From positions 1 to 62,412 of IMG/VR virus record IMGVR_UViG_3300042344_000078: a stretch of 62,412 bases of DNA, one strand, 5' to 3'. Below are positions 1 through 59,016 of the stretch, piece after piece. Both the position numbers and the translations under genes were made by a program. Every line of letters starts with the position of its first letter. Positions within the stretch are counted from its first letter, which is position 1. This DNA comes from a virus. Its lineage: Duplodnaviria; Caudoviricetes. The notes beneath the pieces were generated by a model, which saw only the letters and a program-made list of their open reading frames with translations, was not told the DNA's origin and did no database searches.

Positions 1-77
1 TATAGGCTCGACCGCCGATCTGTGCGACGCGGCGCATGAAATATTTTTCGATGTCTTTCTCTAGCATAAAAAGTCTC

Positions 78-106
78 TTGACATACCCGTAAAGAAAAGT
101 CTAGTG
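78..106 (+). promoter_or_regulatory. Putative sigma70-type promoter
   Basis: TTGACA at 78-83 with a weak -10-like CTAGT downstream, just before the ORF at 130. Confidence 0.4.
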
Positions 107-129
107 TCGAATCACTGAAAGGTAAGGTA

Positions 130-1215
130 ATGACACACAGTAATATCGTCGGCGGCTCGTCCGCAAAGCGTCTAATTAAATGCCCTGGCTCTCGTAAGTT
201 AGTGGCGGAATTACCCCCTAAACCGACAAGCAGTTACGCGGAAGAAGGTTCGCGTCTGCACGACGCCATGCACATGATCTTGTCGCACGGCGCGAAGGTC
301 GACGACTACACGGATAATGAGAAGATTATCCTAGCGCTTGACGCGTTGAATGAAATCGACCCTAATAACGAGTTGGAGTTTGCCACAGAGGTTAACGTTC
401 ACTTTGGAGGCTTCCTTGCCGGAGTTTTTGGTAGTTGCGATCTCGCTGGCCGCATACGCAATCGCGCGATACTGCTAGACTGGAAGTTTGGAGACGGCGT
501 TGCTGTCGACGCAGAAGAGAACGAACAGCTTATGTTCTACACGGCGGCCGGTATGCGCACGCCAGAACTGCGCTGGGTGTTTGAGAACGTCGACGAGATC
601 GAACTAATCATCGTGCAGCCGCCGTATGTAAAGCGCTGGGTGACGACGCCCGGTCGCATAAAAGCGTTTGAGCGCACGCTGTATGATGCTGTGCAGCAAT
701 CTTTCAAGCCCGACGCGCCGTTTGCCGCTGGTGATCATTGCCGTTGGTGTTCGGCTAAGCCTGTCTGTCCGTTGCTTACAGGTAAACTTGAGCGCGCCGT
801 TGCGACTAAAGTGAAGGCGATTGACCCGGAGAAAATGCAACATGCTTTGGCGATGGCGATACTTGCGGAAGAATGGGCTAAAGGCGTTCGTGAACTGGCC
901 CAGACGATGCTGGAAAATAACGCGCCAGTGCCGGGGTGGAAACTCGTGCCCAAACGGGCCACTCGCCAATGGGCTGATCCTGTTACGGCGGAAGCGACTT
1001 TTAATGAAATGGGATTGGGTTTCACGGAGTTCATGGAATTAAAATCGCCGGCACAAATCGAAAAGGCGCTTAAAAAGCGTCATATTGCGATGCCGGAAGG
1101 TTTTACCGTTTCCATGTCAACAGGTAACACGATAGCGCCGGAGAGCGATCCCCGTCCTGCCGTGCTTACAATAGGCAAGGACATCCGTTCTGCCTTCTCT
1201 AAGCTAAAGGTCTAG
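130..1215 (+). CDS. DUF2800-like Cas4/PD-(D/E)XK exonuclease
   Basis: N-terminal GGSSAKRLIKCPGS, EGSRLH, GSCD...LDWKFG nuclease motif, NEQLMFY, C-terminal HCRWC..KPVCP cysteines. Confidence 0.85.
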   Translation: MTHSNIVGGSSAKRLIKCPGSRKLVAELPPKPTSSYAEEGSRLHDAMHMILSHGAKVDDYTDNEKIILALDALNEIDPNNELEFATEVNVHFGGFLAGVFGSCDLAGRIRNRAILLDWKFGDGVAVDAEENEQLMFYTAAGMRTPELRWVFENVDEIELIIVQPPYVKRWVTTPGRIKAFERTLYDAVQQSFKPDAPFAAGDHCRWCSAKPVCPLLTGKLERAVATKVKAIDPEKMQHALAMAILAEEWAKGVRELAQTMLENNAPVPGWKLVPKRATRQWADPVTAEATFNEMGLGFTEFMELKSPAQIEKALKKRHIAMPEGFTVSMSTGNTIAPESDPRPAVLTIGKDIRSAFSKLKV

Positions 1216-1217
1216 TC

Positions 1218-1844
1218 ATGTCTAATATTGTGAAGTTCGGCAACGCCAATCTCCCCACCGCTGCGTCTCTGGCTGAGTCGCTGCGTAAACTCGATACTGA
1301 CGCTGGCGTCGGTTCGGTCATCCTGAAAATGGATAAGACCGGCCATTGGGTTTACGGCGCGGATCAGACTGAGATCGACAAAGACGGACGCTGGGCGGTC
1401 AATCCGTTCTCGTTCGTCCACGGTTTCATCGCGTGGGGCGAAGGCGAAGTGCTTGGCGAGAAGATGGTGTCCATTACGGAGCCGCTTCCCGAACTGGACG
1501 TGCCCCCGCCTGGCGCTAAGCGCGGATGGGAGCCGCAGGTCGGCATGAGCGTCAAGTGCCTCGACGGTGAGGATGCTGGCACGGAAGCCCGCTACACGGT
1601 CACGTCCGTTGGCGGTAAGCGCGCTATGCACCAGCTTGCCATGAAGGTTGCCGATCAGGTCGAGAAAGATCAGGACGCCCCTGTGGCCGTCGTGAAACTC
1701 GGCTCGGAATATTATCAGCATAAGTCCTACGGTCGCGTCTACACTCCGGTGTTTGACGTGATCGAATGGATTTCGCTCGACGGTGCGCCAGCCGAATCGG
1801 TCGATGGCTCTACCGCAGACACTGGCCGTCGTCGTCGCGGCTGA
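1218..1844 (+). CDS. Putative phage ssDNA-binding / recombination protein
   Basis: Follows a DUF2800-like gene as in many phages; YQHKSYGRVYTPVFDVIEW motif. Confidence 0.55.
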   Translation: MSNIVKFGNANLPTAASLAESLRKLDTDAGVGSVILKMDKTGHWVYGADQTEIDKDGRWAVNPFSFVHGFIAWGEGEVLGEKMVSITEPLPELDVPPPGAKRGWEPQVGMSVKCLDGEDAGTEARYTVTSVGGKRAMHQLAMKVADQVEKDQDAPVAVVKLGSEYYQHKSYGRVYTPVFDVIEWISLDGAPAESVDGSTADTGRRRRG

Positions 1845-1852
1845 TGATAGAG

Positions 1853-1880
1853 AGGCGGCGGCTTAGGCCGCCGTCTTTTT
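1853..1880 (+). terminator. Rho-independent terminator
   Basis: AGGCGGCGGC-TTAG-GCCGCCGTCT stem followed by a T run. Confidence 0.8.
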
Positions 1881-1892
1881 CTGGGAGAGCCG

Positions 1893-2162
1893 ATGACTGA
1901 CTATACCGACCTAATCGAACGGCTGCGCGCTCCCGTGCCGACTGTCTATGACTGCAAAGACGCCGCCGACGCATTAGAGGCGCAGGCACGACGGATTGCG
2001 GAGTTGGAAAAGATGCTCGCCGTGCATCGTCTGGCGGTTGACGTTGACGCCTTAAAAGCCCGCATCGCGGAGTTGGAAGCGGAGAACGAAGAACTGAAAA
2101 AGGCAATTTCTAAACCGTGGATGGGTTCTGCCCGCGCCGCTTATCTGGGAGAGAAGGAATGA
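1893..2162 (+). CDS. Array gene 1, modular coiled-coil small protein (MTDYTDLIERLR...ARAAYLGEKE)
   Basis: 89-aa ORF, RBS GGGAGAG upstream, ends in the 33-bp junction repeat. Confidence 0.85.
   Translation: MTDYTDLIERLRAPVPTVYDCKDAADALEAQARRIAELEKMLAVHRLAVDVDALKARIAELEAENEELKKAISKPWMGSARAAYLGEKE
2130..2162 (+). repeat. 33-bp junction element R1
   Basis: GCCCGCGCCGCTTATCTGGGAGAGAAGGAATGA; identical at 2426 and 2803. Confidence 0.95.
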
Positions 2163-2458
2163 CTGACTACACCGATTTAATCGAACGGCTGCGTGGGAAC
2201 GATATGCCTTGGTCTGTCAAAGACGCCGCCGACGCATTAGAGGCGCAGGCGGGGCGGATTGCTGAGTTGCGTAAAGAAGCTGACATGATGCACAGCGAAT
2301 ACAAGACAGCCCGCGCCCGCATCGCGGAACTTAAAGCGGCGCTGAAGCCGTTTGCTGACAAGGCGGATAAAGCCGAAGGCCCGTTTGAGCCGCCGTATCC
2401 TGTGGACTATTCGTTATGGAGAGCCGCCCGCGCCGCTTATCTGGGAGAGAAGGAATGA
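2159..2458 (+). CDS. Array gene 2 (99 aa, MTDYTDLIERLRGNDMPW...ARAAYLGEKE)
   Basis: ATGA overlap with gene 1; RBS inside R1. Confidence 0.85.
   Translation: MTDYTDLIERLRGNDMPWSVKDAADALEAQAGRIAELRKEADMMHSEYKTARARIAELKAALKPFADKADKAEGPFEPPYPVDYSLWRAARAAYLGEKE
2426..2458 (+). repeat. 33-bp junction element R2
   Basis: Identical to R1. Confidence 0.95.
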
Positions 2459-2835
2459 GTGACGACTTTATTGCGCTGCTGCGCGACGAACTTGCGGAAA
2501 TGGCGTCAACCGCTTCCGTCGATATGGAATTGTGGAACAGGTTTTCAAACCGCGTTCTTAAAGCCGCAAACGTCATTGAAGAACAAGCCGTCCGCATTGA
2601 GGACATCGCAGAGAAATACAACAACGCTCTATTGTCGCCTGTTACAGAGAAGATGCTGAAAAACGCGGTTGAAGAGATTGTTCAGTTAAAGGCGGCGCTT
2701 AAGCCCTTCGTTGACATGGCAGACGAGTATGACGCCGCTTTTCCTCGGCCCTTGAATATTTGCCTTGCAGAATATCCAGAGGATTACCCTTTGTGGTGTC
2801 AAGCCCGCGCCGCTTATCTGGGAGAGAAGGAATGA
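2455..2835 (+). CDS. Array gene 3 (126 aa, MSDDFIALL...ARAAYLGEKE)
   Basis: ATGA overlap; RBS inside R2. Confidence 0.85.
   Translation: MSDDFIALLRDELAEMASTASVDMELWNRFSNRVLKAANVIEEQAVRIEDIAEKYNNALLSPVTEKMLKNAVEEIVQLKAALKPFVDMADEYDAAFPRPLNICLAEYPEDYPLWCQARAAYLGEKE
2803..2835 (+). repeat. 33-bp junction element R3
   Basis: Identical to R1. Confidence 0.95.
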
Positions 2836-3047
2836 GTGGTTTTGGTTTCGGAAAAGGACCGCCTTTGACGGCGGAACACCAAGCGGTGCATGAAATCCGC
2901 GCTGATGAAACGCTGGCGCTACGCGCCCGCATCGCGGAACTTGAAGCGGAAGTTGCTGACTTGAACGAGTGTCTTACCCTTGCCCACATGGACGGTTTTG
3001 AAAAAGGGCGTGACGCCGCCCGCGCCGCTTTGGGAGAAAAGGAATGA
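2832..3047 (+). CDS. Array gene 4 (71 aa, MSGFGFGKG...ARAALGEKE)
   Basis: ATGA overlap; RBS inside R3. Confidence 0.85.
   Translation: MSGFGFGKGPPLTAEHQAVHEIRADETLALRARIAELEAEVADLNECLTLAHMDGFEKGRDAARAALGEKE
3018..3047 (+). repeat. 30-bp variant junction element R4
   Basis: GCCCGCGCCGCTTTGGGAGAAAAGGAATGA: one codon shorter, frame preserved. Confidence 0.9.
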
Positions 3048-3208
3048 CTGAACCCAGATCAATAGAACTTGAACTTCGCTGGCTGCGCGCACGTTTTAAC
3101 GACGCAGAGTGGGAGCAAGATGAAGGGATGATGGCTTCACTCTCTTATCAAATCAATCGGTTGGAAATGCTACAATCCTTGGGCGAACGATTCGACGTAA
3201 ATCACTGA
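3044..3208 (+). CDS. Array terminal gene 5 (54 aa, MTEPRSIELELRWLRARF...), not in the ORF track
   Basis: ATGA overlap with R4, open to TGA at 3206-3208. Confidence 0.7.
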   Translation: MTEPRSIELELRWLRARFNDAEWEQDEGMMASLSYQINRLEMLQSLGERFDVNH

Positions 3209-3220
3209 TTTTGTTCGAAC

Positions 3221-3272
3221 TTGACACGCTCAACGTGTTGTGCAATGATCGAACTGTGAACAAATCACACAA
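3221..3272 (+). promoter_or_regulatory. Conserved phage promoter/leader motif
   Basis: TTGACAC-N12-GTGCAATG-ATCGAACTGTGAACAAATCACACAA; related copies at 5713, 56134 and 54601. Confidence 0.75.
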
Positions 3273-3290
3273 TAACTAAGAGGCAATACC

Positions 3291-4283
3291 ATGCGACCGA
3301 CTCAGTTAGAAGCTACTCTTACGGCTCTTATCTCTATCAATCGCACGACTACTATCGAAGGCGCACCCGGTGGTGGTAAGACTACCATTGTTCATGCCGT
3401 CGCCAATAAGATGGGTAAGCACTACATCGAACGGCATCTCCCTACGATGCTTGTCGAGGACTTTGGCATACCCGTTATCGGTGGCGATACGCTGACTTAT
3501 AAAATCCCTGACTGGTTTCCTTCCAAGGGTTCTTCGTGGGATGATGGTAAGGGCGGTGTGCTATGCTTCGACGATAGGAACCAAGCTAATGCAGATATTC
3601 AGAAGGTGCTGGCAAACATTTGTCAGGCTCGTAATCTGCATGGTGTTCCCCTTGCTGATGGCTGGACTGTCGTTTCTACTGGCAATCGGCAGTCTGATCG
3701 TGCTGGCGCAAACCGCGTTCTTAGCCATCTGCGTAACCGTGAAACGGTTATTGAGTTGGATACTCACTTGGATGACTCGACGCAGTGGATGATCGACAAC
3801 GCCGTTAAGCCAGAGGTTATCTCATTCCTTCGCTTTCGTCCCAACCTGCTGCATGACTTCGATCCGCAGCGTGATAGCAACCCCACGCCTCGCTCTTGGG
3901 TCGAAGGTGTTAGCGCAGTGCTTGGCGTTGTGCCTTCCGAGTCTGAGTATGAGTGCTTCAAGGGCGCAGTAGGTGAAGGCGCTGCGGCTGAGTTTGTTGG
4001 CTTCATGCGTATCTTCCGCAAGCTGCCTAATCCTGACGCTATCTTGCTTAATCCAGATAAATCCGATGTGCCTTCCGATCCGGCGACACTCTATGCCTTA
4101 TCGGGCGCTCTGGCTGAACGTGCGTCGGATGCTAACTTTGCTCGTGTCTGCACATATGCCGAGCGTATGCCGCCGGAGTTTTCTGTGCTGACCATTAGCT
4201 ATGCCGCCCGCAAGAACCCATCACTGGCTTCAACCCAAGCGTTTACGACATGGGCTGTTAAGCACCAAGACGTTTTGTTCTAA
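3291..4283 (+). CDS. MoxR-like AAA+ ATPase
   Basis: Walker A GAPGGGKT, Walker B LCFDD, STGNR sensor, PTPRSW. Confidence 0.85.
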   Translation: MRPTQLEATLTALISINRTTTIEGAPGGGKTTIVHAVANKMGKHYIERHLPTMLVEDFGIPVIGGDTLTYKIPDWFPSKGSSWDDGKGGVLCFDDRNQANADIQKVLANICQARNLHGVPLADGWTVVSTGNRQSDRAGANRVLSHLRNRETVIELDTHLDDSTQWMIDNAVKPEVISFLRFRPNLLHDFDPQRDSNPTPRSWVEGVSAVLGVVPSESEYECFKGAVGEGAAAEFVGFMRIFRKLPNPDAILLNPDKSDVPSDPATLYALSGALAERASDANFARVCTYAERMPPEFSVLTISYAARKNPSLASTQAFTTWAVKHQDVLF

Positions 4284-4711
4284 TGGGCTATCGTTCTGAT
4301 GTGGCGTTGGGGATTGCGTTCCCCAACAACGCCGCGCTGGTGTCGTTCCTAACAGCGCAGAAGCTAACAGGCACAAAGGAGATGCAGGAAGCGATTAAAC
4401 AGTTTGGTGTTACGCATATGTCCGCAGCCTACAAGGAATACGTTGTGCTGTGGGTGTATGAGGAACAAGTGAAGTGGTATCCAGACTACCCAGAGGTGAT
4501 GGCCTACAACCAGATCATCCAGAACGCCAAGGACTTAGACTATTCAACGATTGAAATAGAGATAGGAGAGGAAACGAATGACATAAAGTTTGAGGTTAAT
4601 CACGGCGAAAAATCAGACTGTGCCTGTCTATATGACTCGTTTGATATTCGGCGTGAAATAAACCGACCTGAAAGCTGGCAAGATATATCCTCGTTTGTCA
4701 AGGAGAACTAA
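4283..4711 (+). CDS. Hypothetical phage protein (MGYRSDV N-terminus)
   Basis: 142-aa ORF coupled to the AAA gene. Confidence 0.75.
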   Translation: MGYRSDVALGIAFPNNAALVSFLTAQKLTGTKEMQEAIKQFGVTHMSAAYKEYVVLWVYEEQVKWYPDYPEVMAYNQIIQNAKDLDYSTIEIEIGEETNDIKFEVNHGEKSDCACLYDSFDIRREINRPESWQDISSFVKEN

Positions 4712-4713
4712 CC

Positions 4714-5565
4714 ATGAACCTTAACGACCGTGCGCTGCTGGTGCAGCTTAACATTTCACAGTGGACGGCGCGCAAACATGACAAGCGCGCTACGGAGGAC
4801 GTTGCTGCGATGCACAACGCTGGCAAATCTGCTGGCCGGTATCACAAAGCGTTGCTTCCCATGAACGATTATCTGGATAACGTGCAAAAGAAAGCCACGC
4901 TGATCCGCACCCGTTACTACCAGAACACGTTGCCGTGGGCGATGGATGGCACTCAGATGCTTCCATCTGCTAATTACCTGTCGTTTATGACTGACTTCCG
5001 CAAACAGAAAGCGGAGTGGGAGTATGCCGTTGCGTTGTTTATCGACCACTACGATGACATGAAAACCATAGCCAAGCGTGTGCTTGGTTCGCTCTACTCC
5101 GAGGCTGACTACCCGTCGGAGCAAGAGATCATCCACAAATTCAAGATGGATATGGCTGTGTTTCCTGTGCCTTCCACTGACTTTCGTGTGCAGTTATCGA
5201 ACGATGAACTAAACCATATTCGTGGTGACTTAGAAGCTAGGCTTGCTACTGCACAGCAAGCGGCTGTGCGTGATGTGTGGGATCGACTGTTCGACAAAGT
5301 AAAACATATTGCTGACAAGCTGGCCGATCCCAAAGCTATCTTCCGTGACAGCATGGTGGAGAACGCCAAAGAATTGTGCGAACTACTGCCAAGGTTAAAC
5401 TTTACTGATGATCCGAACCTTGAGATGATGCGCGCAGAAGTGGAAGCCAAACTAATCGGCCATCATCCAGAGGCGTTGCGTAACAACCTTGACTTGCGAC
5501 ACGACACTGCGTCCGAAGCGAAAGCTATCATGGATAAGATGTCTGTGTTTATGAATGGCTTATGA
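4714..5565 (+). CDS. DUF3150-like helical protein
   Basis: 283 aa; TLPW, YPS and FRDS motifs typical of the phage family found beside AAA/VWA genes. Confidence 0.6.
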   Translation: MNLNDRALLVQLNISQWTARKHDKRATEDVAAMHNAGKSAGRYHKALLPMNDYLDNVQKKATLIRTRYYQNTLPWAMDGTQMLPSANYLSFMTDFRKQKAEWEYAVALFIDHYDDMKTIAKRVLGSLYSEADYPSEQEIIHKFKMDMAVFPVPSTDFRVQLSNDELNHIRGDLEARLATAQQAAVRDVWDRLFDKVKHIADKLADPKAIFRDSMVENAKELCELLPRLNFTDDPNLEMMRAEVEAKLIGHHPEALRNNLDLRHDTASEAKAIMDKMSVFMNGL

Positions 5566-5659
5566 AATACGATAGCTGCCAGTTTGCTATTGTATAGTCT
5601 CACCTGACTTGCATGGTGATCGAGTGGGACTCGAAAACTGGGAAACGAGGAAGCACTAA

Positions 5660-5704
5660 GAGTCGTCGCGGCAATCGCGTAACACGCTGCGGCGACTCAC
5701 TTTT
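5660..5704 (+). terminator. Hairpin / likely terminator
   Basis: GAGTCGTCGCGGC pairs with GCTGCGGCGACTC (two G-U), followed by ACTTTT. Confidence 0.55.
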
Positions 5705-5712
5705 CCGGCGAC

Positions 5713-5764
5713 TTGACACGCGCCGCAACGTCGTGCATCATCGGGCTGTGAACTGAACACACAA
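5713..5764 (+). promoter_or_regulatory. Conserved phage promoter/leader motif
   Basis: TTGACAC-N13-GTGCATCA-TCGGGCTGTGAACTGAACACACAA. Confidence 0.7.
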
Positions 5765-5776
5765 AGGACTAAGGCA

Positions 5777-6880
5777 ATGGACTTACTCAAGCGGTTATCG
5801 AAAGCCAAGACTGGCCTAATCCTAGAGCATCCCTTCATCGGATCGGTTGCCATTAACATGCCGTTCGAACTGGACGAAACCATTGCGACTGCTGGCACCA
5901 ATGGCAAGCGTGTTAGATTTAACCCTGCGTTTATTGAGAAGCTGACTGATGAGGAACTTAAATTCCTTGTCGCTCACGAGTGTCTCCATCCCATGCTCGA
6001 ACATAACTATCGCCGCAATGGACGGACTGCCAAGCGTTGGAATCAGGCGGCTGACTATGTGATTAACCAGCTTCTTGTCGATGAAAAGATTGGCAAGTTT
6101 ATCGACGGCGGCTGTCTCAATCAGGCTACCTATAACGCTGGCGGTGGCACCAGTGACGGTATCTATAACATACTGCCGGAAGATAACGGCGAAGGTGGAG
6201 GTGACATCGGTGGCGCTGGCAATGATCTGGAAGATGGTGAAGGTTCACCTGCCGAACAGGAACAACAAGCCGCAGAATGGCGTGTCAAAGTTGCCCAAGC
6301 CGCGCAAGCCGCGAAGATGATGGGTAAACTGTCGGCTAACATGCAGCGTTTTGTTGACGAAGTATTGCAGCCCAAGGTTGCATGGCAGGATGTGTTGCGT
6401 CGGTTTGTGCAGAAAGCCAAGACGGATCAGCGCACGTTCGCCCGCCCCAACCGTAGGTTCTTGGCGCAGGGTTTGTATATGCCGTCCATCACTGGCGAGG
6501 TTCTTGGTGAGATTGCCATTGCCGTTGATTGCTCTGGCTCTATCGGTCAGCGTGAACTCAATGAGTTTGCTACTGAAATCAAAGCCATGAAGGAAGATGG
6601 CAACCCGTCTGCGCTACATATCGTTTACTTTGACAGTGAGGTTAGTCACTACGATCACTATGGTCGTGACGATGAGGTTGTTATTGAGCCGCACGGTGGT
6701 GGCGGCACAGCGTTCAGCCCCATCTTTCAGTATCTTGAGCAAAACAATATTAACCCTGTCGCTTGTGTCGTGCTTACCGATTTGTATTGCAATGACTTTG
6801 GTGACACGCCGGACTACCCTGTGCTGTGGGTAACCAATGGCACAGACCAAGCGCCTTGGGGTGAAGTGGTTAAGATGTAA
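5777..6880 (+). CDS. DUF2201-like metallopeptidase + VWA domain protein
   Basis: HECLH (HExxH), WNQAADYVIN, MIDAS DCSGS, GGGGTAF, LTD. Confidence 0.85.
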   Translation: MDLLKRLSKAKTGLILEHPFIGSVAINMPFELDETIATAGTNGKRVRFNPAFIEKLTDEELKFLVAHECLHPMLEHNYRRNGRTAKRWNQAADYVINQLLVDEKIGKFIDGGCLNQATYNAGGGTSDGIYNILPEDNGEGGGDIGGAGNDLEDGEGSPAEQEQQAAEWRVKVAQAAQAAKMMGKLSANMQRFVDEVLQPKVAWQDVLRRFVQKAKTDQRTFARPNRRFLAQGLYMPSITGEVLGEIAIAVDCSGSIGQRELNEFATEIKAMKEDGNPSALHIVYFDSEVSHYDHYGRDDEVVIEPHGGGGTAFSPIFQYLEQNNINPVACVVLTDLYCNDFGDTPDYPVLWVTNGTDQAPWGEVVKM

Positions 6881-14746: not shown

Positions 14747-16281
14747 TCGAAAGAGCCAAAGCGCTTGCGCTAAAGCTAGACTACCCAGCGCGTGTGCTGG
14801 AGACAATACCTACTGCCAAGATGCTGCGCCCTAATATCATTGTGGCTCCGCATCGGCTGGATGAAGTGCGCGTGTTACGCAACATGGGCATCGACGCTCC
14901 GTCGCCTATACTGCACTACTATGATTGGCCCGGTAGGTTCCAGCCGTTCGAACACCAGAAAGAGACGGCTGCGTTTCTTACGGTTAACCAACGTGCGTTG
15001 GTGCTTAATGAGATTGGTACTGGCAAAACCCAGAGTTCACTGTGGGCTGCTGACTATCTGATTAAAACCAAACAGGTTAAGAAGGTTCTAATTATCTCTC
15101 CGCTCTCTACACTAGAGCGCGTGTGGGGTGACGCTATCTTCTTTGGCTTTCCGAACCGTAAAGCTGTCGTCTTGCATGGCACAGCCGAACGTAGACGCAA
15201 GCTGCTCAAGAGTGACGCTGACTTCTACATCATTAACCATGACGGCTTTCCGATTATATCAGAGATTACGAATGGCATGTTCGACCTAATCATCGTGGAC
15301 GAGGCCGCAGTGTTACGCAACCACAGCACAATGCGTTACCGCGTAATGCGTAAGTACATGGAACGCAATCCAGATACACGTTTGTGGTTGATGACCGGTA
15401 CGCCTACGCCTAATGATCCGACCGACGCATGGACGCTATCCAGACTGGTCAATAGCCCGTTCATACCATCTAGCTTCACTGCCTTTAGAGATCAGGTGAT
15501 GATGAAGGTTGGTATGTATAAGTGGACGCCGCGTCCGAACAGTATGGAGCTTGTCAAGAACGTACTGCAACCGGCTGTGCGCTATACCAGAGATGAATGT
15601 TTCGATCTGCCTGACACCATAACGCAGACACGTAAGGTTGAACTGACACCCGACCAGAGAAAGCATTATCAGGCGATGATTCGCCATCTGGTTACTGAGT
15701 CTGGCACTGAGGCTGGCACCATCACGGCTGTCAACGAAGCAGTCAAGATGCAGAAACTTGTGCAGATAGCTTGTGGCGTAGCGTACGATGATGATGGCAC
15801 CAACGTCGAACTTGAATGTGCGCCGCGAGTTAATCTGGTTAAGGAACTTATAGAGGAGGCTGGAGAAAAGGTTATCGTGTTCGTCCCACTGACCGGGACA
15901 TTGGAGATGTTAGAGCGTGAGTTGTCTAAGCATTGGACTGTCGGCGTCGTCAACGGCTCTGTCAGTTCGTCGAAGCGCAATGCTATCTTCCATAACTTTC
16001 AGAACGAAAGTGATCCCCATGTGTTGATCGCGCATCCTGCCACGATGGCGCATGGGTTAACGCTGACATCTGCGAGTACTGTGATCTGGTATGGGCCAGT
16101 GACTAGCAACGAACAGTATGTTCAGGCAAACGGTCGCATCGAACGTATTGGCAAGCGGCATGTATCGAATGTCATCCACATAGAGGCGACTGAACTAGAG
16201 CATAAGATGTACAGCAGACTTATGAATAAGCAAAAGCTACAAGGTCTGTTGTTGGATTTGATACAACAAGAAACACGTTAA
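14737..16281 (+). CDS. SNF2-family helicase
   Basis: GTGKT, DEAA, MTGTP, GLTLT, QANGRIERIG. Confidence 0.9.
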   Translation: MLVVERAKALALKLDYPARVLETIPTAKMLRPNIIVAPHRLDEVRVLRNMGIDAPSPILHYYDWPGRFQPFEHQKETAAFLTVNQRALVLNEIGTGKTQSSLWAADYLIKTKQVKKVLIISPLSTLERVWGDAIFFGFPNRKAVVLHGTAERRRKLLKSDADFYIINHDGFPIISEITNGMFDLIIVDEAAVLRNHSTMRYRVMRKYMERNPDTRLWLMTGTPTPNDPTDAWTLSRLVNSPFIPSSFTAFRDQVMMKVGMYKWTPRPNSMELVKNVLQPAVRYTRDECFDLPDTITQTRKVELTPDQRKHYQAMIRHLVTESGTEAGTITAVNEAVKMQKLVQIACGVAYDDDGTNVELECAPRVNLVKELIEEAGEKVIVFVPLTGTLEMLERELSKHWTVGVVNGSVSSSKRNAIFHNFQNESDPHVLIAHPATMAHGLTLTSASTVIWYGPVTSNEQYVQANGRIERIGKRHVSNVIHIEATELEHKMYSRLMNKQKLQGLLLDLIQQETR

Positions 16282-16292
16282 GAGGTAAGGCA

Positions 16293-16694
16293 ATGGATGT
16301 AACAGTGGAACAGGTCGTCGCGGCCTATATGAAACTGCGCGATAAGAAGAAAGCTATCGAAGCCGAGGCTGATAGCAAAGTGCAAGAAATTGTGCAGAAG
16401 ATGGAGAAGTTCGAGACTTGGATAAGGGAGAAAGCCACCGAGCAGGGGGTTACATCCTTCAAGACCAACGCTGGTACTGCGTTCTTAACCACGGTTGACT
16501 TTGCCAACGTCGCTGATTGGGATGCAGTCCTGTCATTCATCAAAACAAATGAAGCGTACGATATGCTTGAGCGCCGCATCAGCAAGACCGCAGTGCGTAG
16601 CTATATCGAAGCGCATAAGGAAGTACCCACTGGCGTTAACTATGGCACCAAGTTGAGTGTCAATGTCCGCAAGCCAGCGGCGAAAGGAGAGTGA
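16293..16694 (+). CDS. Conserved phage replication-region protein
   Basis: Coiled coil followed by DWDAVLSFI...VPTGV. Confidence 0.7.
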   Translation: MDVTVEQVVAAYMKLRDKKKAIEAEADSKVQEIVQKMEKFETWIREKATEQGVTSFKTNAGTAFLTTVDFANVADWDAVLSFIKTNEAYDMLERRISKTAVRSYIEAHKEVPTGVNYGTKLSVNVRKPAAKGE

Positions 16695-18265: not shown

Positions 18266-21148
18266 GTGGACATCACTATGAATACGTTGGATTTTCTTCA
18301 GCGGGTACTTCCATCTGATGGGTACTATGTCGCCGTTGCGATTAAGAATAAAAAAGTTTTGCTGCACCGCTTTGTGGACAACATAGTATCTCTAGAGACG
18401 GTAGTAGACGGTATCAGTGCTGGTGGTGGCAATGCGTACTTCGCAGTTGCATCATTTGTTACAAACACTGGCGGTCGAAAACAAGATAATGTGCATAGCT
18501 TAAAGTCTTTATATCTAGATATTGATTGCGGTGTGGATAAACCATACCTCACCCAGCGCGATGGGCTTAAAGCCTTATCCACATTTGTTAAAGAGACGCA
18601 GCTTCCGACGCCAATGATTGTCTCATCGGGCAACGGACTCCATGCGTACTGGATTCTAGATCGTGAGTTGCCGCGTGATGAATGGCAACCGCTGGCCGAC
18701 GCACTGAAGAACGCAACGCAGCAGCTTAAGTTTGAGGTTGATCCCGTGGTGCCAGCCGACAGCGCCCGCATACTGCGGCCAGTCGGGACGATCAATACGA
18801 AGGGCGGGGAACTTGTAACTAGTTTGTTAGCAAAGGATGAGACACACAACGTAGAATATATTGACAGGATACTGTCGCCGTATCGTGTTAACCAAATAAA
18901 GATAAGACCACCGAGCGCGCAGTTCACTCCACTGATTGATCTCAGCACCAAGACTGAGTTCCCCCCGACCAGCGCCGCTGCGATGGTGGATAAATGCCAG
19001 CAGATTCGGTGGGGTGTAGAGAACCAGAAGAAAGTCCAAGAGCCATTCTGGTACGCCTTGCTGGGCATCGCCGCCTATTGCGAAGACCCAGAGGCCACTG
19101 CCGTGGCATGGAGTAAAGACCACCCAGAGTACAGCTACGATAAGACTGTAGCTAAGCTAGAGCATTGGAAGGCGTCAGTCTCAGGGCCGACAACCTGCAA
19201 CAAGTTTCAAGAACTGCGTTCAAGTGGATGCGACAAATGCAAGTTCAAAGGAAGCATAACAACTCCCTGCTCGATTGGCGTAACATATAAGTCTGTTGAG
19301 ATTGATCCTTCCGCACCCGACGAAGTGGCCCACCTCACGCCACTACCACGGGCATACAAACGCGCTAGCGACGGTGGCATTAAGCAGACGATTGACAGCA
19401 CCGACGTAGACATTTGCCCCTTCGACCTGTACCCCGTTGGCTATGGGCGCGACGAAGCGCTGGGCTACGAGACTGTGCGGTATAGGTGGAACAGACCCCA
19501 TGCTGGGTGGCAACCACTGGTATTCAGGCAAGCCTACCTAGCTGACGGAAGCCGCGAGTTCGCGTCGGCCATCGCAGACCAAGGCATTGTGCTACTCCAC
19601 AAACATCAGACGGAAAAATTCCAGATGCTTCTGCGCACCTACATGGATGAACTGCGTAAGATGAAAGCCATGACCAACATCCACACTTCTATGGGGTGGA
19701 AGGATGATAGGTCACAATTCCTAATTGGCGACACGCTGTTCAGACGGCACGACGATGGCTCTGTATCGGAAGAAGTTGTCTCGATCTCGCAGACATCGAA
19801 CCGCGCAGCCCCTACCATGTACGGCGTATCTGGTACGTTGGAAGAAGCCACCAACTTCACCAGCATTATTGATAAAGGCAGACTGCCCATCCAAGGATGG
19901 GCTATGATGATTGGTCTGGCGGCACCGATGTTCGAGTTCACCGGCATCAAGGGCTTGACCATCAATCTGTACGGGCCGTCAGGGTCAGGCAAGTCATTAG
20001 CTCAGCTTATGATTCAGTCCCTATGGGGCAATCCTGATATGCTCCATTACGCATCCAAGTTTACACACAATGCCCTCTATGCCCGCATGGGTCTATGCAA
20101 CAACCTGCCCATGACGATTGATGAAGCCACCACGATGGCGGCTAAAGACATCGGTGATTTCCTGTACGATGTGTCGCAGGGTAGAGAGAAGGCTCGACTG
20201 ACTCGCACTGCAGAGGAACGCAACGCCCGTACGTGGCGGTTACCCTGTATAACATCTGCCAATAAGTCTCTGAATGCCTCGCTTATATCGACTGGCTTGG
20301 AGACCGACGCTCAGATGATGCGCCTCTTTGAGATCACAGTCACCCCGCATCCGTTATTCGAGAAGTCTACAGATGCAGGACAACGTATTTATAACTTCGT
20401 GTCAGTCCATTATGGGACTATTGGTCGGGCCTTCATCCGCAAGCTGTTGGAGATTGGTGCTGAAGACTTAGCCACCATCATTGATAACCACAAGGCTGAG
20501 TTCACCAAGAAGTATAACTGCAAGTTCGAAGGCACCGAACGGTTCTGGGAGCAGAGTGTTATCCTCGCTGACCTAGCTGGCAAGCTGGCCTGCGAGTGGG
20601 GGCTGTTCAAGTTTGACTATACCAAATGCACCAATGCTGTCCTGTCACAGATGGGTTCGATCCGTAAGAATGTGCAGGAGAATGTCACGGATTCCTTCGA
20701 CCTGATCTCTGAGTACCTTAATGCTCATAGCGAGGCAACGATTATCGCTACCCATACTGGTGGTAGCAAGGTGTATGTAGATACCACCCGGCTACCGCGT
20801 AAGGATGTGCGTGTTAGATTTGATCTGTACCGCCCGTCGCATTCCGATCCCTATGAACGAGGCGTTGTCCTGCTGGATAAGACGCACTTCAAACGCTGGC
20901 TCTCCAACAACGGAGCCGATATGCGTACCGTAATGAAAGACATCATAGCGGCGAACGCAGATGCTACGCCCAAGATTGGCAAGGCTTATCTAGCCAAAGA
21001 CTCGTCGATCAAACTGGGCCAGACCTACGTTATTGGTGTCAGTCTACAGCACCCGCGCCTTGTCGGCATCCTTACTGACAAGGATGACAACGCCATCAAC
21101 AACGATCTGGCTGGCTTAACGGTGCTGCAAGGAGGAAGGGTAGATTAG
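18266..21148 (+). CDS. Primase-helicase (AEP/RepB-like primase + Cys-rich domain + DUF927 ATPase)
   Basis: LDID, SSGNGLHAYW, ARILRPVGT; Walker A GPSGSGKS, Walker B MTIDE. Confidence 0.85.
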   Translation: MDITMNTLDFLQRVLPSDGYYVAVAIKNKKVLLHRFVDNIVSLETVVDGISAGGGNAYFAVASFVTNTGGRKQDNVHSLKSLYLDIDCGVDKPYLTQRDGLKALSTFVKETQLPTPMIVSSGNGLHAYWILDRELPRDEWQPLADALKNATQQLKFEVDPVVPADSARILRPVGTINTKGGELVTSLLAKDETHNVEYIDRILSPYRVNQIKIRPPSAQFTPLIDLSTKTEFPPTSAAAMVDKCQQIRWGVENQKKVQEPFWYALLGIAAYCEDPEATAVAWSKDHPEYSYDKTVAKLEHWKASVSGPTTCNKFQELRSSGCDKCKFKGSITTPCSIGVTYKSVEIDPSAPDEVAHLTPLPRAYKRASDGGIKQTIDSTDVDICPFDLYPVGYGRDEALGYETVRYRWNRPHAGWQPLVFRQAYLADGSREFASAIADQGIVLLHKHQTEKFQMLLRTYMDELRKMKAMTNIHTSMGWKDDRSQFLIGDTLFRRHDDGSVSEEVVSISQTSNRAAPTMYGVSGTLEEATNFTSIIDKGRLPIQGWAMMIGLAAPMFEFTGIKGLTINLYGPSGSGKSLAQLMIQSLWGNPDMLHYASKFTHNALYARMGLCNNLPMTIDEATTMAAKDIGDFLYDVSQGREKARLTRTAEERNARTWRLPCITSANKSLNASLISTGLETDAQMMRLFEITVTPHPLFEKSTDAGQRIYNFVSVHYGTIGRAFIRKLLEIGAEDLATIIDNHKAEFTKKYNCKFEGTERFWEQSVILADLAGKLACEWGLFKFDYTKCTNAVLSQMGSIRKNVQENVTDSFDLISEYLNAHSEATIIATHTGGSKVYVDTTRLPRKDVRVRFDLYRPSHSDPYERGVVLLDKTHFKRWLSNNGADMRTVMKDIIAANADATPKIGKAYLAKDSSIKLGQTYVIGVSLQHPRLVGILTDKDDNAINNDLAGLTVLQGGRVD

Positions 21149-48321: not shown

Positions 48322-48328
48322 TATAATC

Positions 48329-48952: not shown

Positions 48953-49000
48953 TATTCAATTCCTCGTCTGTCGGGCGCGGGTAGTCAGGATGCAACATCA

Positions 49001-51765: not shown

Positions 51766-51821
51766 ACAAAGAACCTCTAGGCGCTACCTGAGCATACCGT
51801 AGAGAACTCAGATATGCAAAC

Positions 51822-51864
51822 AAAAAACCCCGGCGGCACAAGGGGGAGGAAACACCGCCGGGGT
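51822..51864 (-). terminator. Rho-independent terminator
   Basis: ACCCCGGCGG/CCGCCGGGGT stem followed by T6 on the minus strand. Confidence 0.65.
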
Positions 51865-51942
51865 GGAGTTTAGACTAGAGGCAATGAACAACCGGGAGGT
51901 TCGTTCACCACTGGTGATAACATGAGTTAAACCGCCTGTCTA

Positions 51943-57631: not shown

Positions 57632-57970
57632 ATGTTTATGCAATGCGTTGGTGCTTGTCATCAGGCGATGAGCCTTATTCGTAGCCAAGAGAAGCGTATC
57701 GCTGATTTGCGTAAAGAAGCTGACATGATGCACAGCGAATATAAAACAGCGCGTGACCGCATAAACGAATTAGAAGCCGCATTAGAGGCGCAGGCGCGAC
57801 GGATTGCGGAGTTGGAAAAGATGCTCGCCGTTCATCGTCTGGCGGTTGACGTTGACGCCTTAAAAGCCCGCATCGCGGAGTTGGAAGCGGAGAACGAAGA
57901 ACTGAAAAAGGCAATTTCTAAACCGTGGATGGGTTCTGCCCGCGCCGCTTATCTGGGAGAGAAGGAATGA
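57632..57970 (+). CDS. Alternative array gene 1' (112 aa, ends ARAAYLGEKE)
   Basis: RBS GGAGG; 3' half equals array gene 1; 5' half carries the RKEADMMHSEYKTAR module of gene 2. Confidence 0.8.
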   Translation: MFMQCVGACHQAMSLIRSQEKRIADLRKEADMMHSEYKTARDRINELEAALEAQARRIAELEKMLAVHRLAVDVDALKARIAELEAENEELKKAISKPWMGSARAAYLGEKE

Positions 57971-58266
57971 CTGACTACACCGATTTAATCGAACGGCTGC
58001 GTGGGAACGATATGCCTTGGTCTGTCAAAGACGCCGCCGACGCATTAGAGGCGCAGGCGGGGCGGATTGCTGAGTTGCGTAAAGAAGCTGACATGATGCA
58101 CAGCGAATACAAGACAGCCCGCGCCCGCATCGCGGAACTTAAAGCGGCGCTGAAGCCGTTTGCTGACAAGGCGGATAAAGCCGAAGGCCCGTTTGAGCCG
58201 CCGTATCCTGTGGACTATTCGTTATGGAGAGCCGCCCGCGCCGCTTATCTGGGAGAGAAGGAATGA
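57967..58266 (+). CDS. Array gene 2 (repeat copy)
   Basis: Copy of 2159-2458. Confidence 0.85.
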   Translation: MTDYTDLIERLRGNDMPWSVKDAADALEAQAGRIAELRKEADMMHSEYKTARARIAELKAALKPFADKADKAEGPFEPPYPVDYSLWRAARAAYLGEKE

Positions 58267-58643
58267 GTGACGACTTTATTGCGCTGCTGCGCGACGAACT
58301 TGCGGAAATGGCGTCAACCGCTTCCGTCGATATGGAATTGTGGAACAGGTTTTCAAACCGCGTTCTTAAAGCCGCAAACGTCATTGAAGAACAAGCCGTC
58401 CGCATTGAGGACATCGCAGAGAAATACAACAACGCTCTATTGTCGCCTGTTACAGAGAAGATGCTGAAAAACGCGGTTGAAGAGATTGTTCAGTTAAAGG
58501 CGGCGCTTAAGCCCTTCGTTGACATGGCAGACGAGTATGACGCCGCTTTTCCTCGGCCCTTGAATATTTGCCTTGCAGAATATCCAGAGGATTACCCTTT
58601 GTGGTGTCAAGCCCGCGCCGCTTATCTGGGAGAGAAGGAATGA
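58263..58643 (+). CDS. Array gene 3 (repeat copy)
   Basis: Copy of 2455-2835. Confidence 0.85.
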   Translation: MSDDFIALLRDELAEMASTASVDMELWNRFSNRVLKAANVIEEQAVRIEDIAEKYNNALLSPVTEKMLKNAVEEIVQLKAALKPFVDMADEYDAAFPRPLNICLAEYPEDYPLWCQARAAYLGEKE

Positions 58644-58855
58644 GTGGTTTTGGTTTCGGAAAAGGACCGCCTTTGACGGCGGAACACCAAGCGGTGCATG
58701 AAATCCGCGCTGATGAAACGCTGGCGCTACGCGCCCGCATCGCGGAACTTGAAGCGGAAGTTGCTGACTTGAACGAGTGTCTTACCCTTGCCCACATGGA
58801 CGGTTTTGAAAAAGGGCGTGACGCCGCCCGCGCCGCTTTGGGAGAAAAGGAATGA
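58640..58855 (+). CDS. Array gene 4 (repeat copy)
   Basis: Copy of 2832-3047. Confidence 0.85.
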   Translation: MSGFGFGKGPPLTAEHQAVHEIRADETLALRARIAELEAEVADLNECLTLAHMDGFEKGRDAARAALGEKE

Positions 58856-59016
58856 CTGAACCCAGATCAATAGAACTTGAACTTCGCTGGCTGCGCGCAC
58901 GTTTTAACGACGCAGAGTGGGAGCAAGATGAAGGGATGATGGCTTCACTCTCTTATCAAATCAATCGGTTGGAAATGCTACAATCCTTGGGCGAACGATT
59001 CGACGTAAATCACTGA
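58852..59016 (+). CDS. Array gene 5 (repeat copy)
   Basis: Copy of 3044-3208. Confidence 0.7.
   Translation: MTEPRSIELELRWLRARFNDAEWEQDEGMMASLSYQINRLEMLQSLGERFDVNH

What the first reader, a model, noticed from the sequence alone, without database searches (positions are those of the whole stretch)
1881..3208. Gene-cassette array joined by a 33-bp element that is C-terminus + RBS + stop + next start
Seen: four consecutive short genes end in GCCCGCGCCGCTTATCTGGGAGAGAAGGAATGA (2130, 2426 and 2803 identical; 3018 a one-codon-shorter variant). The element encodes ARAAYLGEKE*, carries GGAG 7 nt before an ATG, and its ATGA is both the stop of one gene and the start of the next. A remnant (CTGGGAGAG, 1881-1889) precedes gene 1. 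Identity holds even at wobble positions, although the sequence between elements differs in length and content. Inference: the element is a standardised connector. Any crossover between two elements would insert, delete or reorder whole genes while keeping frame and translational coupling. That would be an integron-like, plug-and-play accessory array with no dedicated integrase, plausibly driven by phage recombination functions. I do not recognise it as a named system.
Basis: partly seen in the sequence, partly recalled or inferred. Interest (0 to 1): 0.9.

Follow-up and report, generated by a model that had tools for sequence, protein, structure and literature searches.

The report
Shared linker shuffles phage gene cassettes
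A lake phage carries a row of small genes joined by one identical short sequence that ends one gene, primes the ribosome and starts the next, and related phages carry the same genes in different orders, joined at that sequence.

Summary
The 33-mer is exact at 2130, 2426 and 2803, with a 30-nt variant at 3018. It joins five translationally coupled genes (1893-3208) in the early region of a podovirus-like lake phage of about 55.8 kb.

The evidence supports the connector idea.
- A codon-blind scan of IMG/VR found 56 distinct contexts of the peptide ARAAYLGEK. 41 use exactly the same 27 nt and 15 differ by one or two synonymous bases. The phage's own codon usage gives 1.7e-5 for that codon set.
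- Gene bodies on either side differ and are often unrelated.
- Relatives pair 100%-identical flanks differently: gene 3 is followed by gene 2 in four contigs, but by gene 4 here.
- 36% of homology breakpoints between arrays fall on the element, which covers 2.4% of the sequence.

No integrase, reverse transcriptase, known annealing protein, RNA structure or promoter was found.

Best reading: this is a triple-coded "boundary sequence" used by general homologous recombination. It is conceptually like T4 PeSLs, but it is coding and works through translational coupling. Breakpoints also occur inside genes. The tail is also a protein motif conserved at greater depth, with lineage-specific nucleotide versions.

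Limits: the evidence comes from short-read assemblies, and the protein function is unknown. I rate it a new variant of a known kind.

The parts
1854..1875 (+). Terminator-like GC hairpin plus T-run that closes the upstream gene (1218-1844) and precedes the array
   Evidence: One search lists it (stem GGCGGC...GCCGCC followed by TTTTT). folds 1850-1950 at -36.9 kcal/mol with this hairpin.
1881..1892 (+). Head junction. It is the 3' half of the element (CTGGGAGAG plus spacer) and serves as the ribosome-binding site of gene 1, with no upstream ORF tail.
   Evidence: 1869-1927 vs 2135-2193, 76%. One search shows the same T-run + CTGGGGGAG + ATGA head in L013, where it precedes a gene-3-type body.
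1893..2162 (+). Gene 1, 89 aa, coiled coil, ends in ARAAYLGEKE
   Evidence: Pfam and PHROGs give only sub-threshold coiled-coil matches.
2130..2162 (+). Linker copy 1 (33 nt): tail codons, Shine-Dalgarno sequence and ATGA stop/start
   Evidence: 0 mismatches
2159..2458 (+). Gene 2, 99 aa. Its N-terminus is paralogous to gene 1 and its C-module to gene 3.
   Evidence: The AF2 model has pLDDT 88 with helices at 5-11, 18-72 and 84-95.
2426..2458 (+). Linker copy 2
   Evidence: 0 mismatches
2455..2835 (+). Gene 3, 126 aa
   Evidence: It has 12 related IMG/VR loci.
2803..2835 (+). Linker copy 3
   Evidence: 0 mismatches
2832..3047 (+). Gene 4, 71 aa, ends in ARAALGEKE
3018..3047 (+). Linker variant (30 nt) with a 3-nt deletion and one synonymous change
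   Evidence: family D1 lists this copy as 3007-3051 at 71%.
3044..3208 (+). Gene 5, 54 aa, last gene of the array, without the tail
   Evidence: No Pfam or PHROG hit.
3221..3249 (+). Promoter-like site (TTGACA, 17 nt spacer, AATGAT, with TG) after the array and before the AAA ATPase gene at 3291-4283
   Evidence: 10 of 12 matches. No promoter-like site lies inside 1893-3208.
57632..57970 (+). Gene 1', 112 aa, a chimera. Its N-part resembles the middle of gene 2 (57694-57780 is 82% identical to 2254-2340). From 57778 onward it is the gene 1 tail.
   Evidence: The same joint is seen in lake contigs at depth 100 in run X11.
57938..59016 (+). Second print of linker 1 and genes 2-5, produced by the contig overlap. 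It is not an independent array.

Best explanation
**What the region is.** It is a hyperplastic accessory-gene array in the early operon of an uncultivated, podovirus-like lake phage of about 55.8 kb. Five small genes are read as one translationally coupled string.

**What the junction does.** The junction is a sequence of about 25-38 nt with three overlapping jobs.
- Its 5' part encodes the end of a C-terminal helix (ARAAYL).
- Its middle (GGGAGAG / AAGGA, read as G-E-K-E) is the Shine-Dalgarno sequence of the next gene.
- Its ATGA is the stop of one gene and the start of the next.

**How it acts as a connector.** The same nucleotides stand behind many different genes, both in this phage and in other phages of the same lakes. 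General homologous recombination between two copies therefore yields products that stay in frame and stay expressed. Recombination within one genome gives deletions or duplications. Recombination between co-infecting genomes gives swaps.

**Why the nucleotides stay identical.** Repeated exchange through the element keeps its nucleotides uniform (concerted evolution) while the gene bodies diverge or are replaced. Other shared motifs inside the genes (AADALEAQARRIAEL, ARIAELEAALKPFAD) act the same way at sub-gene level, so the proteins themselves are mosaics.

**Shown versus inferred.**
- Shown: the anatomy, the nucleotide invariance, the reassorted neighbours and the breakpoint enrichment.
- Inferred: that homologous recombination by host RecA or an unrecognised phage enzyme is the agent, and that the proteins are dispensable accessory (host-interaction) factors.
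For: 1. **Anatomy.** Searches show the anatomy. There is no internal promoter or terminator, a terminator-like hairpin lies before the array, and a promoter-like site lies after it.
2. **Codon-blind scan.** A scan of IMG/VR for the peptide ARAAYLGEK found 56 distinct contexts. 41 carry the identical 27-mer, 14 have one synonymous change and 1 has two. That is 16 changes at 504 degenerate positions.
3. **Codon bias does not explain this.** The phage's own codon usage gives 1.7e-5 for that codon set, with GCC at 19% of Ala codons and GGA at 12% of Gly codons.
4. **Internal control motif.** The motif ARIAELEA varies freely at synonymous sites, for example Leu CTT 58, TTG 34 and four other codons 16.
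5. **Loci found through gene-3 peptides.** 10 distinct tails were seen. 6 are exact, 3 have one synonymous change and 1 has one non-synonymous change. The rest of gene 3 falls as low as 55% amino-acid identity.
6. **Combinatorial neighbours.** 68 contexts gave 40 upstream and 45 downstream clusters in 62 pairings. 8 of 40 upstream clusters have 2-8 different downstream partners. 12 of 45 downstream clusters have at least 2 upstream partners.
7. **Recent exchange at the element.** With 100-nt flanks 98-100% identical to the window, gene 3 is followed by gene 2 in L004, L005, L006 and L008. These are four IMG/VR contigs from four datasets. In the window gene 3 is followed by gene 4. Gene 1 at 100% identity is followed by unrelated genes in L043 and L064. 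A gene-4-type body is followed by gene 3 in L003, L014 and L086.
8. **Breakpoint enrichment.** 144 of 396 unique internal end points of blastn matches at 95% identity or more, between 46 arrays, lie within -10..+45 of an element. That zone is 2.4% of the bases.
9. **Unrelated bodies carry the tail.** One search shows only 11 of 11 tail residues aligning. One search found that 124 of 227 tail-bearing products lack both family motifs, and some have hydrophobic, membrane-like bodies.
10. **A different backbone shares array pieces.** MW202613 is a 43-kb myovirus-like record with an integrase. It shares array pieces at 85-94% identity and nothing else in 9.2 kb.
11. **No dedicated enzyme.** There are no tyrosine or serine recombinases and no reverse transcriptase in six frames.
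Against: - All comparative evidence comes from short-read metagenome assemblies. Where the shared stretch nears the assembler's word length, some pairings could be chimeric. The window itself has a suspect 5' end (1-1969 or 1-2024).
- Only k=31 contigs could be laid. They break at the 33-nt repeat, so no single molecule was seen to skip a cassette or to form a circle.
- No RecT, ERF or Rad52-type annealing protein was found, so the recombinase is unknown.
- The tail peptide is conserved at greater depth with other codons. ARAALGEK appears in 116 C-terminal contexts and 43 nucleotide versions. ARAALEKK appears in 33 C-terminal contexts. It is modelled as a helix. Protein-level selection therefore contributes, and recombination may be a by-product rather than the reason for the design.
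- 64% of breakpoints are elsewhere.
- The 3' part of the tail travels with neither neighbour consistently: 15% versus 24% identical, against a 3% background.
Confidence: 0.6

Rival explanations
1. The nucleotide identity is held by a sequence-specific function of the DNA or RNA itself. Candidates are a binding site for a phage or host protein, a target of a dedicated but unrecognised nuclease or recombinase, a phage-specific promoter or processing site, or a recombination hotspot signal of the Chi type. On this reading the reassortment is a side effect.
For: - The first 20 nt (GCCCGCGCCGCTTATCTGGG) are the most invariant part. They lie upstream of the Shine-Dalgarno sequence, where translation gives no obvious reason for fixed wobble bases.
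- Codon bias does not explain it.
- The GGGAGA core recalls the start region of T7-type promoters. This is my recollection, not a tool result.
Against: - No conserved RNA fold: z-scores are 0.60, 1.16, -0.75 and 0.80, with four different folds.
- No Rfam match reaches its gathering score.
- No sigma-70-like site lies in the array.
- No integrase, resolvase or reverse transcriptase was found.
- No RNA polymerase family was found among 9 large ORFs. The six-frame PF00940 search also found none, but its control did not ring, so it is inconclusive.
- The same peptide tail occurs in other phages in several discrete nucleotide versions. That fits lineage-wise homogenisation better than one fixed recognition site.
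- The element also occurs in a different phage backbone.
Confidence: 0.15
2. This is an ordinary tandem family of paralogous small proteins whose C-terminal helix is functionally required. The identical nucleotides reflect recent duplication and local gene conversion. The connector has no special role in moving genes.
For: - Genes 1 and 2 share an N-terminus, and genes 2 and 3 share a C-module.
- The tail is a modelled helix.
- The motif ARAAL-G/E-EK is conserved at depth with varied codons.
- 174 homologues form one mosaic family.
- The related Rhizobium phage RHph_TM3_14A has a plain paralogue array in the same genome position.
Against: - Bodies with no detectable likeness carry the identical tail.
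- The tail does not diverge with its gene. It shows 0 changes in the 25-mer where gene 3 is only 55% identical.
- Identity extends across contigs with no other nucleotide likeness.
- Neighbours are reassorted with the joint inside the element and flanks 100% identical.
- Breakpoints are about 15-fold enriched there.
Confidence: 0.15
3. The apparent shuffling is an artefact of metagenome assembly, which jumps between co-occurring strains at a shared repeat.
For: - The window's own left end (1-1969) does not match the unit it overlaps. In run X11 it has depth 0-6 against about 70 for the backbone.
- Contig depth summed over the array is about 3-10 times the backbone in runs X1-X3, so many variants coexist.
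Against: - A 33-nt repeat is shorter than the final word sizes of usual assemblers and than single reads. This is my own knowledge, not a tool result.
- The gene 3 to gene 2 pairing recurs in four contigs from four datasets. The gene-4-type to gene 3 pairing recurs in three assemblies.
- Two GenBank circular records carry such arrays.
Confidence: 0.07

Closest known systems
PeSL (promoter-early stem-loop) cassettes of T4-type phages (Arbiol et al. 2010, PMC2839356, abstract and section 13 read; Comeau et al. 2014, PMC4122927, abstract read)
   Same: - Both are short repeated motifs at gene boundaries in hyperplastic regions full of small genes of unknown function.
- Both carry the upstream stop, a Shine-Dalgarno sequence and the downstream start.
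- Both serve as points of exchange between otherwise unrelated sequences in related phages.
   Different: - PeSLs are intergenic and regulatory. They combine a sigma-70 promoter with a terminator stem-loop, and each gene is its own transcription unit.
- Here there is no promoter and no stem-loop.
- The element here is coding (10 codons of the upstream gene), and expression is passed on by translational coupling.
- The host phage is not T4-like.
- Mini-circles were shown for PeSLs and could not be tested here.
Short conserved boundary (linker) sequences of the modular theory of phage evolution
   Same: - Both involve homologous recombination at short conserved sequences at module boundaries.
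- Pope et al. 2011 (PMC3029335, passages read) cite the model. The original papers are known to me by recollection (Susskind and Botstein 1978) and from a reference-list entry in PMC2327257 (Clark et al. 2001).
- Pope et al. give one case. Island3 gp68 shares its last 18 residues, about 50 bp, with upstream gp67, and recombination there explains an indel.
   Different: [quoted passage not shown]
- Here one element recurs 3-4 times in one array, and tail-bearing ORFs reach 12 in a relative (L039).
- The exact 25-mer occurs in 51 IMG/VR stretches on 49 contigs, with wobble-level identity.
Integron gene-cassette arrays
   Same: Both are rows of promoterless accessory genes in one orientation, with variable number and order, and a repeated element at each junction.
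   Different: - There is no IntI integrase.
- There is no attC-type imperfect inverted repeat or hairpin.
- The junction lies inside coding sequence.
- Exchange would be by general recombination, not site-specific recombination.
Tandem paralogue arrays with gene conversion, for example the early region of Rhizobium phage RHph_TM3_14A
   Same: Both occupy the same genome position, upstream of the AAA ATPase gene. Both consist of small genes, with shared motifs among neighbours.
   Different: - In RHph_TM3_14A the shared motif is N-terminal and only 62-89% identical.
- Here the shared block is exact, sits on the junction, and is attached to unrelated bodies.

Membership tests
Integron | IntI tyrosine recombinase next to the array | tested here: not met
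   A six-frame search with PF00589 gave 0 matches, while the control rang in 14 of 14 genomes. Resolvase PF00239 also gave 0 matches.
Integron | attC sites: imperfect inverted repeats able to fold as single-strand hairpins | tested here: not met
   No inverted repeat lies within or around the element. The junction folds are no better than shuffles.
Integron | Cassettes excised and inserted as circles | not testable with these tools
   Only k=31 contigs were served and there were no raw reads.
PeSL-type regulatory cassette | Sigma-70-like early promoter in each repeat | tested here: not met
   No promoter-like site lies between 1893 and 3208.
PeSL-type regulatory cassette | Stem-loop terminator or attenuator in each repeat | tested here: not met
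   The only + strand hairpin with a T-run near the array is at 1854-1875, before gene 1. The three terminator-like hits inside 1893-3208 are on the - strand.
PeSL-type regulatory cassette | Repeats mark the end points of insertions, deletions and replacements between related phages | tested here: met
Short conserved boundary sequence (modular theory) | Short sequence conserved at a gene boundary between otherwise non-homologous genes | tested here: met
   Conservation falls to background within about 5 nt upstream and about 35 nt downstream of the element start in 68 contexts. Bodies are unrelated.
Short conserved boundary sequence (modular theory) | Recombinant joints between relatives fall in that sequence | tested here: met
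   One search shows flanks at 100% identity with different partners. One search places 144 of 396 end points on 2.4% of the bases.
Short conserved boundary sequence (modular theory) | Exchange carried out by general homologous recombination | not testable with these tools
   This is inferred. No RecT, ERF or Rad52 family was found. The host is unknown.
Plain tandem paralogue family | The shared block diverges at synonymous sites like the rest of the gene | tested here: not met
Diversity-generating retroelement | Reverse transcriptase with template and variable repeats | tested here: not met
   PF00078 gave 0 matches in six frames.

The most novel reading that the evidence does not exclude
Freshwater phages share a recombination-based cassette system. 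A family of triple-coded linkers (C-terminal helix end, Shine-Dalgarno sequence and stop/start overlap) exists in several nucleotide 'compatibility' versions. Each linker works as a universal adaptor, so any small accessory gene that carries it can be moved, copied or dropped among unrelated phage backbones without a dedicated enzyme. It would be a functional counterpart of integrons that runs on homologous recombination. The linkers would be kept uniform because cassettes with intact linkers spread.
Probability: 0.4. Interest if true: 0.8.

Novelty: new variant of a known kind. Interest (0 to 1): 0.66.

Why it matters
Phage genomes are mosaics, and how modules are exchanged has been debated for a long time. 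One view is homologous exchange at short linkers. The other is random illegitimate joining followed by selection. Clear linker sequences have rarely been found (PMC3029335 passages).

This array offers an unusually clean natural case.
- One short element recurs in many phages of the same habitat.
- It is invariant at the nucleotide level.
- It sits on the joints of reassorted genes.
- It is built so that every recombinant stays in frame and translated.

If the exchange is confirmed on single molecules, it would make the linker model directly testable. It would also show a way to build variable accessory-gene arrays without an integrase. The design might further serve as a pattern for assembling translationally coupled gene strings. 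What the roughly 200 small proteins do is open. Their position and turnover suggest a role in host interaction.

Tried and rejected
**Protein function.**
- Pfam and PHROGs gave only sub-threshold coiled-coil matches for genes 1-5 and gene 1'.
- The AF2 model of gene 2 had no Foldseek PDB match at E<=0.001 (best E 1.8).
- The ESM Atlas returned only unnamed clusters.
- All named rows among 174 homologues were 'hypothetical' or generic coiled-coil labels.

**RNA element.** The Rfam matches were far below their gathering scores (isrG 22.4 against 100). The junction folds were no better than shuffles.

**Promoter idea.** The likeness of the GGGAGA core to T7-type promoters is my recollection. No RNA polymerase family was found. 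One search was inconclusive because its control did not ring.

**Host.**
- The exact 25-mer had 0 hits in 185,579 species genomes.
- The codon-blind pattern gave 12 stretches. 11 use other codons, mostly inside longer ORFs of GC-rich genomes. One (L086) is a 3.4-kb lake contig binned in a MAG.
- The closest isolates by capsid protein are Rhizobium phages at 54.5% identity.
- Those phages do not carry the family. A tblastn search with E<=0.01 hit only the two Manatee Spring records, with the low-complexity filter on.

**Reads.**
- Only Logan k=31 contigs were available, and they end at the 33-nt repeat. Joints that skip cassettes, such as 2440>2841, 2451>3017 and 2156>3013, have short sides of 21-29 letters. 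I do not count them as proof.
- Loose ends show other genes behind the element. One example is the start ATGATTGAAGATCTGTCGCT seen behind 2166, 3033 and 3052.
- Parts without cover are not interpreted.

**Does the 3' part of the tail travel with the downstream gene?** The result was unclear: 31 of 207 versus 30 of 126 identical, against a background of 790 of 26,912.

**Backbone-likeness column.** My filter wrongly dropped hits ending at window 1881, so I do not use that column. I use only the ORF counts from that call.

**Rows dropped before counts.**
- Searches dropped contexts closer than 100-120 nt to a locus end.
- One search dropped 29 of 75 arrays as contained duplicates, and dropped matches under 80 nt.
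- Searches left out the genome loci L075-L085.

**Tools and sources that were unavailable.**
- Supplements of the papers were not seen. PeSL lists and mini-circle data in the supplements of PMC2839356 may bear on the comparison.
- I found no printed description of this element in searches. That covers only those terms and that library.
Full report
**Observation.** The 33-mer GCCCGCGCCGCTTATCTGGGAGAGAAGGAATGA is present without mismatch at 2130, 2426 and 2803. It is present again at 57938, 58234 and 58611. No match is expected in 100 shuffles. The second trio is not independent, because window 1970-6604 equals 57778-62412 at an offset of 55,808 with 2 mismatches in 4,635 nt, at 1988 and 2024. 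The fourth junction, at 3018-3047, is the same element with a 3-nt deletion (TAT CTG becomes TTG) and one synonymous change. Read with ATGA as both stop and start, the genes are 1893-2162 (89 aa), 2159-2458 (99 aa), 2455-2835 (126 aa), 2832-3047 (71 aa) and 3044-3208 (54 aa, no tail). CTGGGAGAG at 1881-1889 serves as the ribosome-binding site of gene 1.

**Where it lies.** The window is a whole IMG/VR virus record.
- Large ORFs give a DNA polymerase A, helicases, a primase-helicase, an exonuclease, a portal/adaptor, an internal virion protein, a major head protein and a large terminase.
- The head protein is 54.5% identical to that of Rhizobium phages RHph_TM3_14A and relatives, which have the same gene layout.
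- The repeat unit is 55,808 nt.
- The first 1,969 nt hold a DUF2800 PD-(D/E)XK nuclease and a 208-aa protein. They do not match the sequence that precedes the second copy. In lake run X11 they have depth 0-6 against about 70 for the backbone. I take the left end to be a variant or a chimeric join.
- At the second copy, gene 1 is replaced by gene 1' (57632-57970). Its front resembles the middle of gene 2 (82% over 87 nt) and its rear is gene 1. This is a joint inside a gene, at the shared motif ALEAQARRIAEL.
- The array has a terminator-like hairpin before it (1854-1875), a promoter-like site after it (3221-3249) and no promoter-like site inside it. The only terminator-like hits inside it are on the opposite strand.

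**Relatives.**
- Two of 50,697 phage records (MW202613 and MW202748, 43-kb circular myovirus-like records from a spring, with an integrase) match parts of the array at 89-90%. In 9.2 kb around it they match nothing else in the window. They carry their own row of genes ending in ARAALGEKE, ARAALGEKK or ARAAYLGEREPAP.
- IMG/VR holds 12 loci with gene-3 relatives. It holds 51 stretches on 49 contigs with the exact first 25 nt of the element.
- The 185,579 species genomes hold none.
- 23 lake or freshwater metagenome runs hold at least 63% of the sampled words of window 1500-3400, the stretch that spans the array.
- Counts of ORFs whose products end in a tail of this family range from 1 to 12 per locus, the maximum being L039.

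**Is the identity more than protein conservation?**
- A scan blind to codon choice (GCN CGN GCN GCN TAY CTN GGN GAR AAR) found 56 distinct contexts in IMG/VR. 41 have the identical 27 nt, 14 have one synonymous change and 1 has two. That is 16 changes at 504 degenerate positions.
- Under the codon usage of 18 large genes of this phage, the chance of that codon set is 1.7e-5. GCC is only 19% of Ala codons and GGA 12% of Gly codons.
- In bacterial genomes the same peptide, where it occurs, uses other codons in 11 of 12 stretches. The twelfth (L086) is a lake contig with the real array.
- In the same loci the internal motif ARIAELEA varies freely at synonymous sites.
- In loci found through gene-3 peptides alone, 6 of 10 distinct tails are exact, 3 have one synonymous change and 1 has one replacement. 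Gene 3 itself drops to 55-93% identity.
- Conservation falls to background about 5 nt before and about 35 nt after the start of the element. Inside the 25-mer this is by construction of that scan, but the flanks are informative.

**Are neighbours reassorted at the element?**
- Among 68 distinct contexts there are 40 upstream and 45 downstream sequence clusters in 62 pairings. 8 of 40 upstream clusters have 2-8 different downstream partners. 12 of 45 downstream clusters have at least two upstream partners.
- With 100-nt flanks compared to the window, gene 3 (100%) is followed by gene 2 (98-100%) in L004, L005, L006 and L008. These are contigs of four datasets. In the window gene 3 is followed by gene 4.
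- Gene 1 (100%) is followed by unrelated sequence in L043 and L064.
- A gene-4-type end (90%) is followed by gene 3 (100%) in L003 and L014. In L086 only 21 nt follow the element, and they match the start of gene 3.
- L004 has gene 4 (100%) behind a gene-1-type end.
- Across 46 non-redundant arrays, 396 unique internal end points of matches at 95% identity or more were found. 144 of them (36%; 100 right ends and 44 left ends) lie within -10..+45 of an element, a zone holding 2.4% of the bases. Further clusters lie about 80, 120 and 180 nt upstream, at about the distance of the internal shared motifs.
- Exchange therefore happens at the element above all, but also inside genes.

**The proteins.**
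- Gene 1 and gene 3 align only in the tail. A 61-aa product from L011 aligns with gene 2 only in 11 of 11 tail residues.
- Of 227 distinct tail-bearing products in the fetched loci, 60 have the ALKPF motif, 80 have RIAELE and 124 have neither. Among the last group are short hydrophobic, membrane-like products.
- 174 database proteins match gene 2. All are metagenomic, and many match at 90-100% over only half their length, which marks them as mosaics. 86 of the 120 listed end in the tail.
- AF2 models gene 2 as a long helix with a short C-terminal helix made by the tail (pLDDT 88). No solved structure matches.
- The function is unknown. From the position upstream of the replication genes, the small size and the turnover, I infer dispensable host-interaction genes. 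Confidence in that inference is low.

**A wider family.** Codon-blind scans for ARAALGEK and ARAALEKK found at least 118 and 58 stretches.
- 116 of 123 ARAALGEK contexts and 33 of 48 ARAALEKK contexts are C-terminal.
- They fall into discrete nucleotide versions. For ARAALGEK the counts are 21, 18, 17, 8, 7 and so on, with 43 versions in all. For ARAALEKK the top counts are 13 and 9, with 11 versions.
- The peptide, with its built-in Shine-Dalgarno sequence (G-E = GGnGAr), is therefore old and under protein and translation constraints. Each nucleotide version is shared by many different genes.
- That is the pattern expected of homogenisation within exchanging populations, rather than of one fixed recognition site.

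**Other mechanisms tested.**
- No tyrosine or serine recombinase and no reverse transcriptase was found in six frames.
- No RecT, ERF or Rad52 family was found.
- No RNA family, conserved fold or promoter-like site was found.
- The agent of exchange is thus inferred to be general homologous recombination. The 25-38 nt of identity is near the minimal length usually quoted for RecA-dependent exchange. That figure is my own knowledge, not tested here.

**Reads.** Only k=31 contigs were served, and they stop at the 33-nt repeat. They show three things. Summed depth in the array is about 3-10 times the backbone in runs X1-X3. The gene 1' joint stands at depth 100 in X11. Other gene starts appear behind the element. 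Their short sides do not prove single-molecule joints.

**Comparison with known systems.**
- The nearest described system is the PeSL of T4-type phages. PeSLs are repeated boundary motifs that mediate modular shuffling in hyperplastic regions (PMC2839356 abstract and section 13; PMC4122927 abstract). PeSLs are intergenic promoter-terminator cassettes, whereas this element is coding and relies on translational coupling.
- It fits the older 'short conserved boundary sequence' model. Pope et al. say such sequences are missing at most mosaic joints, and they give a single pair sharing 18 C-terminal residues (PMC3029335 passages).
- It is not an integron.

**Verdict.** The mechanism is inferred, and the evidence is assembly-based. 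It is a new variant of a known kind. Interest 0.66.

Noticed in passing
window 1-2024 versus 55809-57832; 1970-6604 = 57778-62412: The record overlaps itself by 4,635 nt with 2 mismatches, both within the first 55 nt. Its first 1,969 nt (DUF2800 nuclease and a 208-aa protein) are not part of the 55,808-nt unit. In run X11 this part has depth 0-6 against about 70 for the backbone. It is probably a variant or chimeric left end joined inside gene 1.
   Followed up: partly
window 55600-56200: AT-rich non-coding stretch with repeated AAACTTTACAT(TTT) motifs, for example 55706-55730 and 56013-56037 at 84% identity. It lies between the divergent late and early gene blocks. It may be an origin or an early promoter cluster.
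   Followed up: no
window 3215-3292, 56120-56203, 5756-5781, 16272-16297: Shared leader motifs lie before several + strand genes. TTGACAC...GTGCAATG.TCGAAC.TGTGAACAAA.CACACAA stands before both the ATPase gene and the first small early gene. AACAC...AAGGCAATGGA stands at 5756 and 16272. These look like phage-specific promoter/leader modules.
   Followed up: no
window 21145-27570 (-): A 2,141-aa ORF with no Pfam family at E<=0.001. The related Rhizobium phage has a similar giant ORF in the same place (record 47471-54394).
   Followed up: partly
window 30805-30894 and 30913-31002: Two 90-nt direct repeats, 83% alike and 108 nt apart, inside the 462-aa ORF at 29656-31044 (-).
   Followed up: no
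L248 (MN988472.1) 21690-24809: The early region of Rhizobium phage RHph_TM3_14A holds 6-7 small paralogous genes. They share an N-terminal motif (...GCCATGCTGCTCGG) at 62-89% identity. This is an ordinary paralogue array in the position that the linker array occupies here.
   Followed up: partly
L086 (JBILLN010000438.1) 3399-3431 (-): A 3.4-kb contig binned in a Bradymonadia MAG carries the phage array (a gene-4-type end, the element and the start of gene 3). It is likely a phage contig placed in the wrong bin.
   Followed up: no
L082 (CAMVNQ010000012.1) 1933-1959: A Clostridia MAG has ...HARAAYLGEK followed directly by a TGA stop that overlaps an ATG, but with other codons. It may be chance or a distant member of the tail family.
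   Followed up: no
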